From Bdellovibrio sp. (lineage in GTDB: Bacteria > Bdellovibrionota > Bdellovibrionia > Bdellovibrionales > Bdellovibrionaceae), in the NCBI GenBank assembly GCA_046318155.1, contig JBKCUU010000113.1:1-59198 (forward strand): a stretch of 59,198 nucleotides of DNA, given 5' to 3'. Numbering within the stretch: the stretch's first letter is position 1; every line of letters starts with the position of its first letter. Shown here one piece after another: positions 36,001-45,000 of the stretch. The position numbers are program-made.

Positions 36001-39000
36001 ACAGTCAGGCCACCCGTATTCGGGTCGCCTTGTTGATTGCTGGTTTTCACGTGGGTTACGGTCAAGCGACTGGTCTTAAAAACCAGACGACGCAAGCGGC
36101 AAGTGACATGGCATTGCTTAAAACGCCCCTCGACCGGGCCTGGTTTGAGCGGTGGCGCCGGTCCCATATTCGGTACCCTTTTGATTGTTCTCCCGAAGAA
36201 CAAGCGGCCGCGGATACTTTTGTCGAAAACTACCTCAATCGCATCAACCCGCTGTAAAGCCCTTCATTTTGGTATTCTTTACTCTCAAACTGGCGGCGAA
36301 CCTGTGCTATCCCCTTGAGCATGGAAGAAAAAAAGAACTGCGTTTGTTGTCAGAAGTCGAAAGCCCTCTTGAACTGCGGCGTCTGCGACGAAACCGTCTG
36401 TAAGTACTGTGCACATTTTTTAGATGAGGGTCAGTTTTCGTTTTTGGCCAAGGTGCCAAGTCTGCTTTCGCATTCAACCTATTGCCCCAGTTGCTATGAT
36501 CAAAATGTCGCAGCTCCCTTGCAGGACTACAACCAGGCTATGGCTCAGGCAAAGGACATCCTTGTTTTCGAAAAAAAGCAGGGCAAAGAAACCCGTTTGA
36601 TTAAGCGGCTTGAAGAGCCCGTCACCGTGACGGACTGTCCAGATCCGGCCGAGACCGTGTTGCGATTGGCGTTTTTCGCTGTGAAGGCGGGATACAACGC
36701 GATCGTTGATGTCCAGGTCAAGCACGAAAAAGTTAAAAACGGCTCGTATCAGACAATGAGGTGGTCAGGGACCGGAGTTCCGGCTTACGTCAACGAAGCC
36801 AAGCTCGCCAAAGACCGATCCGCTTGGCAAAATCCCAATTAACAGCGATACGAACGGTTGCCGCAGGGCAGTTGACTCCCACAATTTGGTGCCTAGAGGC
36901 CCAGAGATGACAGACGATGATGTGGGGAGATTTGCGTTTTGAATCTTGAGCAATTTTTTAAACAACGCCAAGAGTACCAGCGTGTCCAGCCGGTTTATCG
37001 AAACCTCTGCACCACTTGTCTACAGCCCGAGTTTGGTTGCTTTTGCCGGCATATCCAGACATTTGATTCAAAAATTAAGTTTGTGATCCTGATTCATCCG
37101 ATTGAGGCCAAGCGCCGTATCGCCACCGGGCGGATGTCGCATTTATGTCTTCGAAACTCAGAATTACTCATGGGCCAAGACTACACGGCAGATTCGCGAG
37201 TCAACGCGATTCTCGGAGACCCAAAGAACCAATGCATCATTCTTTATCCAGGAGCGCAGTCGTTAAACTTAACAAGTGCTTCAATGGATCAAAAAAAAGC
37301 GCTCTTTTGCGAACACAAAAAACCGGTGGTCTTTGTCATCGATGGGACATGGGCCACAGCGGGCAAAATGATTCGGCAAAGCCAGAACCTGATTGCTCTT
37401 CCGCGCATTGGATTTACACCGCCGGGACCGTCGCATTTTCGAGTTCGCAAGCAGCCCTCACCCGAATGTTATTCGACGATTGAAGCCATTCACCAGACGA
37501 TCGAACTTCTTGGCGAGAGCCTAGGTTTTGCCACTTCAGCGCGAGAGCACGACAAACTTTTATTTGTCTTCAATAAGATGGTCGAGAAGCAGCTCGACTT
37601 CATTCGTCGCTCAGACGAGAATCCGTCGCCCAATCGTTATCGACGCCCTAGGAGCTCGTGATTAGTCGACGAGTCCGGCATAATCGCGAATCAATCCACC
37701 AGCAAGCACCGCGGCGGATTCGTCAGACCCGGTATTTGCCAAGATCACCAAACCATATTGCCGCCGGTTTACATTGAAGATCAGCACGTGATTGCGGATC
37801 GCCACGTTGTAGTTTTTGCCAGTGTCGGGATTTTCAGTCGGACCATCATAAGTGCCAGTCTTTCCGCCAACGTAAAGACTTGTCGGAAGATACTTACGGC
37901 CACGATTAGCGCCGGTTCGGCACGTGTACATGAGCTTCCATAGAGTCTCCGCACCAGGATAATTTGCCTTGTAGGTGTCATGCAAAAACTCGGCGGTTTC
38001 GGCTGCCGTCAGCTCGTTTCCGTGCATGCTACCAAGATAGCCTTGAAACCCCCGCGTCTGTTCGTAACCCATTCGCTGAGTGAACGCCAAAATGCGAGAA
38101 CGCCCTTTATTCGAGTCGCCATCGCCGACCTGAGCTTGCAAATCAGTCCAAGCATCGTTCGAAGAGACGACAAGCATGTTCGACATCAGTTGAAGTTGTG
38201 AACTATTGATAGCTCCCGCTTGCTTGTCGAGAAGACTTGCCCCCACAAAGATCTTTGAAGACGAAGCTCCGAACAACTTTTTATTGGCATTGAGGCTCTG
38301 CTCAATCACTCGATGTCCGTCGAGGTCCATCAAAACCCAATGCACTTTGTGATTGGGATCAGTCTGAGAGTCGGCTTTTATTTTCTCGTAAGCCTTACGG
38401 GCCGTGGCGCCAAAGGCCTGGCCGCTTCCGCGGGAAACCGATAGCTTTGTTCCGCTTACGCTAATGGTACGAAGGTCTTTTCCGCCTGGGAGAATGACGA
38501 ATTCGCGATCATTCTCGGGGCTCGTTGGCATAATTGCCAAGGCGGCATTGGTCATGATTAACAGGCATAGCGACGCCATGCCATTGCGAACATTGGTGGT
38601 TCCAGTCATCACAGCTCCTCCGTGAGCAGATTTGACAAGGCAAATTGAGATCTTCTTTTAATAGATTACGCGTGCGCCCTAAATGCAACAAGGCCTGCCC
38701 AGACAATGGGCAGGCCTAGAAATATTGCGAATCAATAAAACTCGTTTTCTTAGTCGATGTAAGGCCGGGCTTGCTTGATATAAACTTGACGTGCTCCCGT
38801 GTCTTCCGAATCAACTTTGAATTCGAGATCCAAAGAAAAATCCGGCTTATCCGCACCCAGTAGGGGTTTGAAGTGAACGTGCGCCTTCATGACTTGGAGG
38901 GCGAGATCCTTAATTTCCGAATCTTTCATCACTGGATTTGGATTGTCCTGAGGAAGAACTGTCTTGTTATCGTCGGCGATGTTGGAATTCTGAAGGACCT

Positions 39001-42000: not shown

Positions 42001-45000
42001 GTTGGTATAGAAATCCAACTTGCGGCCTTCGTTGACTTCGAATCCCGTGCCTTCGCGGCGGGCCAGTCCATCAGCACCCTGTAAGCCGTAAGAGATCAAG
42101 TATTGAACTCCCATGACTTCAAGTTGACCGTCACCATTGATGTCGTACACGTCGAAATCTTGCGACTGATTTCCGTAGAACATGATTTTTGTGACTTTGT
42201 CATTTTCAACGGGGAAGATGTGACGCATTTCCCATAAGTGACCTAGGGGGATTCGCAAGCAGCCGTGCGAAACTCCGCCACGTTTAACAGCCCATAGAGT
42301 GTTGTGACCGGGATTGATTCCAATCAACGCTTTCAAAGCTTTGCTCGGATCCCAGAACCGAACCGCGGGATTGTGGAAACCATTTCCGATGGCCTCGAAA
42401 TCCATTTTTGGAGCCCAGCCGTAGTAGGGTTCGTTGCGGATGTTATCAGCGTCGTGTTTTCCAGGGCGTGACAAGAACTGCCAGAGGCCGGGCGTGTAGA
42501 ACTGATTGATGGTGTTGCCAAATTCGTCTGTTGTGGAAGCCTCAGCCGAACCAGTCGGGTAGATTGTCGTGAACTCAGGATAGGTTAACGAGCAAGAAGC
42601 GACTGAGCAACGAACTGCTGATTCAAACTGACCTTGAGCATTCAAGATTTGAATTTGGTATTTTGTACCAGTCAATGATTTGAACAACTCGTAAGCTGCA
42701 GAAAGAAAAACGTCATCTGGAGCGTTGGTTAAGGCTGCCGTTAATGCTGTGTTTAGTTGAGTCATCACTTGTGCAGAGGGTTTGTCTGCATAGTTGATGC
42801 GGCCAAAAACAAGACCGTTGATCGCAGTCACTACAGCAGGAGCAGAAGTCATCACTCTCGAGGAGTCTCCACCCGTGAGCCTTTGCATTTCAGATTTCCA
42901 GTTTTTGAAATCATTTGTCAGGTTCAACTTTAAATGGAAGACGCGGCCAGGATTTAAAGCTGCTAAGACTTCGAGACTCTTCTTGTAGATCGCCTCTTTG
43001 CTTTCGCGGCCTTGATTTGCGCGGTCAACAAATCCGAGAATATCGTAAGTTGGAGATTCTAAGATTTGGTTGAAGTAAGAAAGTTGGGGAAGTGATTTTG
43101 CCTTTGCAGGATTGATGCTGAGCTGTGCGTTTGAACCCGTTGTGACTTTTTTGTAAAACGAATATCGTTTCGCGAGGTCGAACAGATAATCACTCACGGT
43201 CTGTTGATCTAAAATGACTGAGACGCGAGTTTGGTTTCCGCGAGACGTTCGCACGTGAATGCGTTCGGGAAACTGACTTCGCATGACGAAGCCGGTGTAG
43301 AAAGTCTGATAATAGCCATTGATCGCTTGAGCTCCGGGAGACCAACTGACGCCCCACTGAGGCAGCAATTTATTGTAGTCTTCGACTGTCGATATTCGCG
43401 TGTTTTCTGCGACCGACGCCGACGAGCAGATCAACAGGGCGAGGGCTAAACTCAGTGCACGAGTCAAGTTCATGGAAGGCCTTTCAGGACAAGAGAGGTT
43501 CATTGATTTGGGAGTCCGAGAGGCAATTAGCGTCTGCACCGCAGCATGTAAACAAGATTTTTGTGTCGCATTAAGTGCTTGTAAGGACTTCACTATCCAA
43601 GAATGTTAGGGTCAAGAGGCTTCAGAAGTCTTAACTCAAAAAAAGGGGGGGGGCCTCACAGCGGAGGTCTAAACGTGGCGTCTTGGAGGTGATTGTCGGT
43701 CCCTTCATTTTTTCAGCCAACCCAGCGCCTTGCGTTGAGTTTGAGCATCCTAAAATTGAAGCGAGCTCGCCTCTGCGACATGTCCTTTATAAATTTTCAA
43801 ATCGATCTTAGAAGCTCTTAGAAGGGCCTAAGAAGGTTGCCTCGCTGAAACAAAGGTCGGCGGCAAAGACCCGTTTCGGTCGGACGCTGGAAGACCTCAA
43901 CAGCACCAGGGTTGATAGGGTCAAATCGATTCGCAGCAAAGTATCCGTTTTCTCTCACAAGAAGGCGGTCATCGTCGTTTACTTTTTTTAAGCCCGCGAT
44001 GAGCCAGGGATCAAAGGCCGTCATGACCTTCCATCCGTCCGTCGTTGAAACGATGGCGGCACCGAGAGCCAGGAGGCGAGTTGCCGCTTCGGGTGCTCGT
44101 GGCCACTGGCCTTGCTCATAGCAACGGCCTGAGGCCGGGCCAAAACCAAGAGTGGATTGAGAGACGTTGCCGCGGTCCCAGTTAAAGGGGAGCGACAGCA
44201 GATCGAGAACTTGTTGGCGGTTCAAGGTGTAACCGCGGCTTGAATTGTAAGCGACAGTCAGTGCTACCGAGGCCGCCGTGATGGCCGCCGAATTTGAAGT
44301 TCCGCGAAACTCATTGTCTTTGTCGAGTTGAATGGAAGAAACAGCCCAGAGATCGGGACGTCCAAGTCGAACCGAACGACTCGTACGTTCAGAATCAATT
44401 GCGCCAACTGAGATGACGTTGGGATTGTCTCCTGGGTTGAGCAAGCTTTCCTTAAAATCGACGGAATCAACTTTTAGAAAATCACCATCAGCCGTGAGTC
44501 TAAGCATCTCAGAGTTGCCGGTGAAATTTTTTGAAGCATTTTTGACACGAACAAAATAAGAGCCAGGCTTAACTTCGGTAGCAACGACTTCACGCGGATA
44601 CTTTGAATATCCCGGGCGGGATTCATTTCGGTCATCACTTTGCTTGAGAGTGCTTGTCTGGATGATATTCAAAAAATCATCGGTGAGCGCAAGATCAAGA
44701 TCGCGGTTTGTGCCGACTTCGGAGTCGTCCTTAAAGTCGTTCCAGCTGAGAACAACTTTGACAGGGCACTTTTTTCCCTTAGGAGCTTCACAAATGATTT
44801 TCCAAGCATTGTTTTGGTCGGGAAGCTTAACCCAATCTTCGTTGATTGTCTTGATAGAGCTGTTCCAAGTTCGAAATCCAAAGTTGCCCGAAGCATTGAC
44901 CCAAACAATTCCGGCGTTTGTTGCACGGTTCACTTCTTGATTGATGAACCCGCGCCCATCAAAGTTACCGCCAAACTCCCAAACCTCAGAGTAAAGTACC

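What a model noticed while it worked through the whole genome (the two positions that open the first line are those of the whole stretch)
37662..43473. Exported, domain-permuted dikinase-like phosphotransferase with a new all-helical partner, in a cell-wall enzyme operon [...]
g02474 (C113:38750-40300, 516 aa; annotated only 'PEP/pyruvate-binding domain') is a two-domain relative of PEP synthase / pyruvate phosphate dikinase / rifampin phosphotransferase with three unusual traits: a Sec-type signal peptide (..AVAQA|KV), the phospho-histidine 'swivel' domain placed N-terminal to the ATP-grasp domain (invariant S83-H84, ..VVAGAITxxQQNLLSHVQLKSRARxTP..), and no third (substrate) domain. The gene before it, g02475 (C113:40310-41683, 457 aa, signal peptide, no family, no fold match in PDB), is its conserved neighbour and predicted binding partner, so I read the pair as a split, exported His-dependent phosphotransferase whose substrate site is supplied by g02475. 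The op [...]
Evidence so far: Pfam: PPDK_N only, residues 176-513 (pfam.tsv; call 159). AF2 on 30 homologues: pLDDT 89.7; Foldseek: rifampin phosphotransferase 5hv1 E 3e-16, HpeI 9goj, PEP synthase 2ols, PPDK 1kbl, all over the ATP-grasp part. hhalign of the family profile against the PEP-utilizers swivel domain of this genome's own PPDK g02347 aligns residues 31-90 collinearly and puts H84 on the catalytic His (TSH), E 0.05. Family: 627 proteins at E<=1e-10, best 120 all 51-78% identical, 428-559 aa (most 513-530), from Bdellovibrionota/Oligoflexia where named. g02475: 139 homologues, unnamed or 'hypothetical protein', many on the same contigs; pLDDT 89.6; no Foldseek match better than E 0.14. 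Order g02475-g02474-g02473 [...]
(Added by a program. Inside this text positions count along the whole contig: contig position 1 is position 1 of the stretch shown here. "Call 12" and the like, gene names such as g00115 and contig names such as C1 are that model's own, and its searches are not shown. The text may have been shortened before it was handed on; [...] marks where a part breaks off. The agent that wrote the report below was given it as the finding of a first reader that could run no searches.)

Follow-up and report, generated by a model that had tools for sequence, protein, structure and literature searches.

The report
Exported split starch-kinase-like enzyme cassette
Two neighbouring genes encode the separately exported halves of one ATP-using enzyme built like the plant starch-phosphorylating dikinases, and they travel with cell-wall-type enzymes, which points to an undescribed phosphorylation reaction outside the cytoplasm, where ATP is scarce.

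Summary
g02475 and g02474 are two halves of one enzyme: 9 of 33 relatives in the class fuse them. The order helical domain, His-swivel, ATP-grasp is that of glucan/phosphoglucan water dikinases (GWD/PWD). g02474 matches PWD-like proteins collinearly (99.8%). g02475 links to the GWD/PWD central domain through a wider fused family (94.7% and 86.6%; 26 controls at most 1.6%). Its invariant D437/K441 align with StGWD1 E900/R904. The direct match is weak and fold searches did not list the GWD structure. Each half has its own signal-like N-terminus, and a predicted clamp joins them (0.64, controls 0.00). g02476 has an L,D-transpeptidase fold and occurs in the same 33 of 301 genomes. A PBP-like gene is adjacent in 19 of 24 split loci. 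Distant relatives add an ATP/ADP-carrier gene, not found in this genome. Best reading: an extracytoplasmic dikinase acting on a cell-wall substrate; acceptor and ATP source unproven. No paper on it was found. The scan noted this system before on other genomes.

The parts
41680..43473 (-). g02476, 597 aa, signal-like N-terminus; L,D-transpeptidase (YkuD) fold with large insertions; invariant H367, S402, G404, C405, R407
   Evidence: Model pLDDT 96.0; the top 16 VIA rows are all YkuD-fold chains, best 4xvo Z 7.2, rmsd 2.8, 113 aligned; Pfam YkuD in 24 of 76 members, best E 0.0013; invariants in 76 of 76
42259..42261 (-). Codon of C405 of g02476, inferred nucleophile
   Evidence: Invariant in alignment A5; role inferred from the YkuD fold
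40310..41683 (-). g02475, 457 aa, mostly helical acceptor-binding half; remote homologue of the GWD/PWD central domain; invariant E160, R203, R231, H235, D437, K441
   Evidence: Fused to the dikinase half in 9 loci; profile chain to PWD and GWD; invariants in 62 of 62
41627..41683 (-). Predicted Sec signal peptide of g02475 (residues 1-19)
   Evidence: Sequence; heuristic positive in 118 of 120 homologues (a looser rule without its own control)
40361..40375 (-). Codons D437-K441 of g02475, aligned with StGWD1 E900-R904, the residues proposed to assist transfer to the acceptor
   Evidence: hhalign; 9HA9 residue numbering; PMC13553574 passages
38750..40300 (-). g02474, 516 aa: signal peptide, phosphohistidine swivel domain (about residues 23-145), ATP-grasp domain (about 160-516)
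   Evidence: Pfam; hhalign to PWD-like core 99.84%, E 3.4e-30; fold matches of the fused homologue
40241..40300 (-). Predicted Sec signal peptide of g02474 (residues 1-20), absent from the linker of fused homologues
   Evidence: 18 of 19 split versus 0 of 9 fused
40049..40051 (-). Codon of H84, inferred phosphocarrier histidine
   Evidence: 28 of 28 invariant; aligned with the catalytic His position of GWD- and PWD-like proteins
39566..39625 (-). g02474 residues 226-245, predicted clamp onto g02475 residues 379-416
   Evidence: Complex model 0.64 versus best control 0.00; motif in 17 of 19 split and 0 of 9 fused
38691..38717 (-). 11-pair GC-rich hairpin after g02474, possible terminator with a weak U-tract
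   Evidence: such sites were no more frequent than in shuffles (6 found, 8.7 expected), so this is only a hint
37662..38609 (-). g02473, 315 aa, class A beta-lactamase/PBP-fold serine enzyme with SxxK (S116-K119), SxN (149-151) and KTG (250-252)
   Evidence: Pfam Beta-lactamase2 E 1.1e-6, 28.6 bits over the cut-off of 22; far under the class A equivalog cut-off, 24.4 versus 200; motifs

Best explanation
g02475 and g02474 together form one GWD/PWD-type dikinase that was split into two genes, each half exported by its own signal peptide (fusion and homology shown; export predicted). After export the ATP-grasp domain of g02474 docks on g02475 through a small clamp (modelled), which fixes the two static domains while the swivel domain moves. 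The enzyme takes the beta-phosphate of ATP onto H84, releasing AMP and Pi, and hands it to an acceptor held in the groove of g02475 near R203, H235, D437 and K441 (inferred from GWD). The acceptor is most likely a hydroxyl of a cell-envelope glycan, peptidoglycan or a muropeptide, handled together with the L,D-transpeptidase-fold g02476 and the PBP-like g02473 (inferred from neighbours only). ATP must come from a periplasmic pool; distant relatives carry an ATP/ADP-carrier gene beside the enzyme, but none was found in this genome. My odds: split GWD/PWD-type dikinase about 0.9; acts outside the cytoplasm about 0.85; envelope glycan hydroxyl as acceptor about 0.5 overall.
For: Fusion: 9 of 33 class loci are single 948-1047 aa ORFs with both halves; the g02475 profile retrieves 139 representatives, 37 of them 930-1040 aa fused proteins. 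Homology: A2 versus PWD-like core 99.84%, 376 columns, collinear through swivel and ATP-grasp, sharing the GAGLY loop that PEP synthase lacks; A3 versus the wider family 99.93%; wider N-half versus PWD 94.7% (E 5.7e-8, 309 columns) and GWD 86.6% (E 4.4e-6); 26 unrelated profiles at most 1.6%, reversed profiles at most 0.3%. Spacing from the conserved Arg to the catalytic His: 88 in StGWD1, mostly 86-89 in GWD/PWD-like rows, about 82-88 in 4 fused homologues. The GWD His-domain model PF22973 gives 8 weak matches in 301 genomes, 5 of them in this superfamily, 0 in 14 controls. ATP-site K180, R287, E293, E493, Q510, R512 are invariant in 28 of 28. Complex: 0.64 versus 0.00; the mark was reached by 116 of 157 solved and 2 of 215 mismatched pairs; runs agree in at least 86% of contacts, partner pLDDT at least 85; GWD needs such a fixed central/ATP-domain contact (PMC13553574). 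Neighbours: strong g02476, g02475 and g02474 hits fall in the same 33 of 301 genomes, g02476 is directly upstream in 32 of 33 loci; PBP-like gene in 19 of 24 split loci and 19 of 20 loci of the wider family; TLC/NTT-like gene in 8 of those 20.
Against: The direct profile match of g02475 is weak (GWD 9.8%, E 0.0033; PWD 0.5%, E 0.11), so the link is transitive. No carbohydrate-binding module or glycoside hydrolase was seen in or beside the cassette, and no result touches the acceptor. No PF22973 match reaches the cut-off, and the wider family scores higher on PEP-utilizers. No TLC gene was found in G000 (95% complete) and only 3 of 301 class genomes have one. The PBP-like gene is missing beside all 9 fused loci of the close clade. 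The YkuD match is modest (Z at most 7.2). Halves of a split gene tend to pass the complex test, and the clamp motifs may be plain clade markers. Signal peptides were judged by hydropathy only. Kin are not independent and the profiles were built from these loci.
Confidence: 0.5

Rival explanations
1. Same split exported dikinase, but it activates a carboxylate (for example the end of a stem peptide) as an acyl-phosphate, which the Cys enzyme g02476 or the Ser enzyme g02473 takes over as acyl-enzyme to make an amide bond: ATP-driven ligation or re-cross-linking outside the cytoplasm.
For: The constant partners are two unrelated folds that both form acyl-enzymes on D-amino-acid peptides: YkuD fold in this clade, PBP fold in the wider family. 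Carbonyl activation by a related synthetase (PigC) is recalled, not tested.
Against: The acceptor domain is homologous to a domain that serves sugar hydroxyls. No physical link between g02476 and the dikinase was tested.
Confidence: 0.2
2. It keeps the GWD reaction and phosphorylates an alpha- or beta-glucan outside the cytoplasm (periplasmic glucan, or glycogen or starch from prey or food); the peptidase-fold neighbours do a separate job.
For: Homology to GWD/PWD over all three catalytic domains; StGWD1 without its binding modules still turns over ATP (PMC13553574).
Against: No binding module and no recurring glycoside hydrolase or glucan gene seen among neighbour clusters; strict co-occurrence with g02476.
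Confidence: 0.12
3. It is a periplasmic small-molecule kinase, for example inactivating an antibiotic or trapping an aromatic compound, like rifampin phosphotransferase or HpeHI.
For: The best solved matches of the ATP-grasp are RPH (Z 21.3) and HpeI (Z 16.8); HpeHI is a two-component dikinase (PMC12167813 abstract); the neighbours have beta-lactam-binding folds.
Against: The acceptor domain and domain order are those of GWD/PWD, not RPH; the RPH match covers the ATP-grasp only; GWD's own ATP domain also aligns best with RPH.
Confidence: 0.1
4. The N-terminal segments are not export signals, or the exported enzyme uses a donor other than ATP.
For: ATP supply to the periplasm is unexplained in general (PMC7432876 passages); no carrier gene found in G000; 38% of this genome's long ORFs pass the hydropathy rule.
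Against: The split half gained a hydrophobic leader exactly where fused forms have a polar linker (18 of 19 versus 0 of 9); all cassette members carry leaders; PWD-like proteins carry none (0 of 52); nucleotide-site residues are invariant.
Confidence: 0.08

Closest known systems
[quoted passage not shown]
   Same: Order central helical domain, His-swivel, ATP-grasp; collinear match of g02474 including the GAGLY loop (99.84%); central-domain match through the wider family (94.7%).
   Different: No CBM20 or TIM-barrel N-terminal module; signal peptides on both halves; split between central and swivel domains; tied to YkuD- and PBP-fold genes; acceptor unknown.
Alpha-glucan, water dikinase StGWD1 (EC 2.7.9.4; central domain 9HA9/9QVI; PMC13553574)
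   Same: Central domain of 444 aa versus 438 aa mature g02475, mainly helical; E900/R904 align with D437/K441; V989-L990-S-H992 with L81-L82-S83-H84; fixed central/ATP-domain contact with a pivoting His domain.
   Different: No CBM45 pair; in the GWD-like rows the GAGLY loop lies after, not before, the segment matching profile positions 326-365; plastid enzyme with ample ATP; direct profile match only E 0.0033.
Rifampin phosphotransferase and PEP synthase
   Same: ATP-grasp fold (5hv1 Z 21.3, rmsd 2.5, 290 aligned; 2ols Z 19.7) and swivel-His chemistry.
   Different: ATP-grasp comes first in these, the acceptor domain is unrelated, they are cytoplasmic; NCBIfam scores 71.7 versus cut-off 598.
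HpeHI two-component dikinase (PMC12167813, abstract read)
   Same: A dikinase split over two genes; ATP-grasp match Z 16.8.
   Different: HpeHI is cut between the ATP-grasp and the rest; here the cut is between acceptor domain and swivel. It is RPH-type and acts on small aromatics.
L,D-transpeptidases (YkuD fold) and class A beta-lactamase/PBP-fold enzymes
   Same: g02476 has the YkuD core and His/Cys residues; g02473 has SxxK, SxN and KTG.
   Different: g02476 is 597 aa with long insertions, the first His lies 35 residues before the Ser-His-Gly-Cys motif instead of the recalled 14-17; g02473 is far below class A cut-offs; neither activity is shown.

Membership tests
GWD/PWD glucan dikinases | Domain order central domain, His domain, C-terminal ATP-binding domain | tested here: met
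   Gene order g02475 then g02474, and 9 fused homologues; order in PMC13553574
GWD/PWD glucan dikinases | Central domain homologous in sequence | tested here: met
   Transitive hhalign 99.93% then 94.7%/86.6%, controls at most 1.6%; direct match weak
GWD/PWD glucan dikinases | Central domain superposes on 9HA9/9QVI | tested here: inconclusive
GWD/PWD glucan dikinases | Phosphohistidine domain over the PF22973 cut-off | tested here: not met
   No hit on g02474; relatives reach at most 22 bits versus 27
GWD/PWD glucan dikinases | N-terminal carbohydrate-binding module (CBM45 or CBM20) | tested here: not met
   No Pfam hit on g02475 or the fused forms, and no room for one
GWD/PWD glucan dikinases | [quoted passage not shown] | not testable with these tools
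   Needs an enzyme assay
Swivel-His dikinases (PEPS/PPDK/RPH/GWD superfamily) | ATP-grasp domain with conserved nucleotide residues | tested here: met
   PPDK_N E 5e-20; invariants; fold matches
Swivel-His dikinases (PEPS/PPDK/RPH/GWD superfamily) | Swivel domain with a conserved His | tested here: met
   Z 8.4-10.1 to solved swivel domains in the fused model; H84 in 28 of 28
PEP synthase / PPDK | C-terminal pyruvate-binding barrel and equivalog score | tested here: not met
   Protein ends with the ATP-grasp; 71.7 versus 598 bits
L,D-transpeptidase (g02476) | YkuD fold with His/Cys pair | tested here: met
   Top 16 VIA rows YkuD-fold, Z 4.9-7.2; H367 and C405 in 76 of 76
L,D-transpeptidase (g02476) | Acts on peptidoglycan stems | not testable with these tools
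   Needs an assay
Class A beta-lactamase (g02473) | Equivalog score | tested here: not met
   24.4 versus 200 bits; fold family and active-site motifs are present
Exported protein | Cleaved Sec signal peptide | tested here: inconclusive
   Hydropathy contrast is strong, but no SignalP run and no expression data

The most novel reading that the evidence does not exclude
Many Gram-negative bacteria run an ATP-fuelled reaction on their cell wall: an exported member of the GWD/PWD lineage phosphorylates peptidoglycan (a sugar hydroxyl, or a stem-peptide carboxylate as acyl-phosphate) for partner L,D-transpeptidase- or PBP-fold enzymes, with ATP delivered on purpose to the periplasm, by an NTT-type carrier in some lineages and by an unknown route in this one.
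Probability: 0.35. Interest if true: 0.9.

Novelty: new variant of a known kind. Interest (0 to 1): 0.72.

Why it matters
The periplasm is usually treated as having no ATP-driven chemistry, and how ATP reaches it is open (PMC7432876 passages). A conserved dikinase whose split half acquired its own export signal is strong indirect evidence for such chemistry, and gives a direct test. It would add a new cell-envelope modification, suggest a job for NTT carriers of free-living bacteria (function untested according to PMC5381601, part 1), and extend the GWD/PWD lineage to exported bacterial enzymes. The split form is also a practical handle: a 50 kDa acceptor domain and a 54 kDa kinase half that can be made and assayed apart.

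Tried and rejected
Word-indexed search for longer forms of g02475 found none; genome and profile searches then found the fusions. 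The search for related loci with g02474 gave no confirmed locus. phmmer of g02474 and profile A3 found nothing relevant in the PDB sequence file. ESM Atlas gave no usable hit for g02475. 9HA9/9QVI are in the PDB sequence file but were not listed by Foldseek, by either VIA run on the fused model, or by profile A6; whether they are in the structure libraries is not known. Foldseek gave no match under E 0.001 for g02476. No plasmid match at E 1e-30 for a wider-family protein. No RNA holder was listed. Promoter scan at chance level. The first tree had five mis-cut PWD-type rows and was redone; the second is FastTree only, with 5 PEPS/RPH-type rows, and does not settle whether PWD or PEPS is the nearer sister by ATP-grasp alone (bits 28-59 versus -1 to 46). 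Rejected: a new permutation of PEP synthase; an orphan partner; a general role in predation. Literature searches listed no paper on this cassette or on exported dikinases; the library lacks most subscription journals.

Full report
Observation. The four ORFs lie on the minus strand as described: g02476 (597 aa), a 4-bp overlap, g02475 (457 aa), a 9-bp gap, g02474 (516 aa), a hairpin, and g02473 (315 aa). Pfam gives PPDK_N for g02474 residues 176-513, nothing for g02475, and Beta-lactamase2 for g02473. NCBIfam PEP synthase and class A models score far under their cut-offs.

The two genes are one enzyme. A search of 301 genomes of the class found g02474 matches in 58; 33 are strong (E at most 1e-74), and 9 of these lie in open frames of about 950-1050 aa. 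In those 9 the N-half matches g02475 (21-26% identity in alignment A3) and the C-half g02474. The g02475 profile, run on 1.84 billion representatives, returned 139 proteins; 37 of the lower-ranked ones are 930-1040 aa fused proteins, some named 'PEP/pyruvate-binding domain-containing protein' from Microbaculum and Fibrobacterota (2 of 10 clusters carried names). One of them found full-length relatives in 27 of 401 genomes of the phylum of G301. In a FastTree tree of the ATP-grasp region, 13 split rows and one fused fragment (P0153) form a group with support 99, inside a group otherwise made of fused forms. Since the wider family and GWD/PWD are fused too, I infer one fission; P0153 is a re-fusion or a misplacement.

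Which kind of dikinase. The order helical domain, His domain, ATP-binding domain is that of potato GWD1 (PMC13553574; I read parts 1-4 of 8 and passages, no supplements, so Fig. S17 on the central/ATP-domain interface is unseen). Profiles used 43 GWD-like and 53 PWD-like rows long enough to hold the core. g02474 matches the PWD-like core at 99.84% over 376 columns, collinear from swivel to ATP-grasp, and the GWD-like core at 99.1%. g02475 matches the wider family's N-half at 99.93%; that N-half matches PWD at 94.7% (E 5.7e-8, 309 columns) and GWD at 86.6% (E 4.4e-6). Twenty-six unrelated profiles reached at most 1.6%, reversed profiles at most 0.3%. The direct comparison is weak: E 0.0033 to GWD and E 0.11 to PWD, though it aligns the same C-terminal segment. 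D437 and K441, invariant in 62 of 62 split homologues, fall on StGWD1 E900 and R904 (numbering), which that paper proposes, without mutation data in the parts I read, as proton donor and stabiliser. R203 and H235 are invariant in 62 of 62, and their counterparts in 45 of 45 rows of the wider alignment. A structural test was inconclusive, because only a 931-residue fused model could be searched. So this works like GWD/PWD in build, but is not filed as a member: it lacks binding modules and misses the PF22973 cut-off.

Swivel and ATP site. The fused model (pLDDT 90.5, pTM 0.73) matches RPH, PEP synthase and HpeI over the ATP-grasp (Z 16.8-21.3) and solved swivel domains over residues 472-588 (Z 8.4-10.4). 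H84 and the nucleotide-site residues are invariant in 28 of 28.

Export. The stretch before the first swivel strand is hydrophobic in 18 of 19 split g02474 homologues and 0 of 9 fused linkers; 0 of 52 PWD-like N-termini pass; 358 of 947 long ORFs of the genome pass. A looser rule passes 118 of 120 g02475 homologues, 112 of 117 g02476 homologues and 34 of 36 fused proteins. The gain of a leader at the fission point is the best argument that the enzyme must be exported. It is a prediction, not a localisation.

The halves bind. The complex model scored 0.64 against a best control of 0.00; the mark was reached by 116 of 157 solved and 2 of 215 mismatched pairs; runs agree in at least 86% of contacts and the partner's pLDDT is at least 85. 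Halves of split genes tend to pass, and my own alignments were used. The interface joins g02474 residues 226-245 to g02475 residues 379-416. The g02474 motif is in 17 of 19 split and 0 of 9 fused rows; the g02475 motif in 108 of 120 homologues and 0 of 9 fused; of 21 loci, 16 have both, 3 neither, 2 only one. This fits a clamp that replaces the lost covalent link and keeps the two static domains fixed, as GWD requires, but the motifs could be clade markers.

Partners. g02476 folds with pLDDT 96; the top 16 VIA rows are all YkuD-fold chains (Z 4.9-7.2), Pfam YkuD touches 24 of 76 members, and H367 and C405 are invariant. Strong hits of g02476, g02475 and g02474 fall in the same 33 of 301 genomes; g02476 is directly upstream in 32 of 33 loci and on another contig in the last. 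Kin are not independent, but the set is patchy over six families. The PBP-like g02473 is adjacent in 19 of 24 split loci (two of the misses end at a contig edge), sometimes inverted, and in 0 of 9 close fused loci. Of the 27 wider-family hits I fetched flanks for 20: 19 have PBP-like genes beside the dikinase, and 8 have a TLC/NTT-like transporter (2 of 4 scanned pass the Pfam TLC cut-off). In the class, TLC was found in 3 of 301 genomes, one of them about 7 kb from a wider-family dikinase, and not in G000.

Mechanism. Shown: one enzyme in two genes, swivel and ATP-grasp folds, invariant residues, fixed partners. Modelled: the clamp. Inferred from GWD: ATP to AMP plus Pi, beta-phosphate on H84, transfer in the g02475 groove. 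Inferred from neighbours only: a cell-wall acceptor. I put a glycan hydroxyl first (0.5), acyl-phosphate activation for the Cys or Ser partner second (0.2), then a glucan (0.12), a small molecule (0.1) and no export or another donor (0.08). The ATP source is unexplained here; a review reports about 24 uM periplasmic ATP per 10^10 E. coli cells and calls its route unknown (PMC7432876, passages).

What is known. Nine literature searches listed nothing on this cassette; the GWD structure paper has no occurrence of 'bacteria', 'bacterial' or 'periplasm' in its main text. Other papers seen: PMC12892837, PMC8703398 and PMC13666283 (passages), PMC12167813 (abstract and outline), PMC5381601 (part 1 of 4). 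The scan's earlier notes on other genomes reach the same GWD-like reading for this split cassette and describe the NTT-linked cluster. I had stated the GWD reading itself and found the transporter link before seeing those notes; they are not independent support.

Verdict. Real, undescribed in the papers searched, and a new variant of a known kind: an exported, split GWD/PWD-type dikinase tied to cell-wall-type enzymes. Interest 0.72.

Noticed in passing
L207-L286 (genome contigs); G303:C33, G304:C72, G305:C3: Full-length PWD-like genes without signal peptides are common in named bacterial genomes (Nitrospirota, Desulfobacterota, Planctomycetota, Verrucomicrobiota, Methylophilaceae), with PF22973 over the cut-off and an N-terminal xylose-isomerase-like barrel in 2 of 2 scanned. 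In 3 of 5 genomes checked a GWD-type gene appears to lie next to them. A 2026 review (PMC13666283 passage) says prokaryotes have no known glucan phosphorylation machinery.
   Followed up: partly
L031-L040, L047-L050: Further families of signal-bearing swivel plus ATP-grasp proteins (about 780-1120 aa) in the same class have an unrelated N-terminal domain of about 200-250 aa, some with a long C-terminal extension; they do not match the g02475 profile and group with g02474 in the tree.
   Followed up: partly
L359-L377; G152:C4:37879-38757: Fused dikinase, two or three PBP-like genes and a TLC/NTT-like transporter form a cluster; one of the PBP-like types has PGSVGK in place of the usual SxxK context.
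   Followed up: partly
G172:C8:363565-365310, G073:C2:262-2016, G196:C28:26484-28286: Three genomes hold a second, unlinked copy of the g02476 family.
   Followed up: no
P0153: A fused protein fragment that falls inside the split group in both trees and has a polar linker: possible re-fusion.
   Followed up: partly
window 45528-45938 (-): 136-aa protein with a signal-like start and a C-terminal tail extremely rich in Tyr; no Pfam match under E 0.2.
   Followed up: no
window 43818-45458 (-): Secreted subtilase-like protein (Peptidase_S8, E 1.2e-6) just upstream of the cassette; it did not cluster with neighbours of the other loci.
   Followed up: partly
L080-L159: In GWD-like proteins the GAGLY loop segment comes about 100 residues after the segment it precedes in PWD-like proteins and in g02474: an internal rearrangement of the ATP-grasp.
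   Followed up: no
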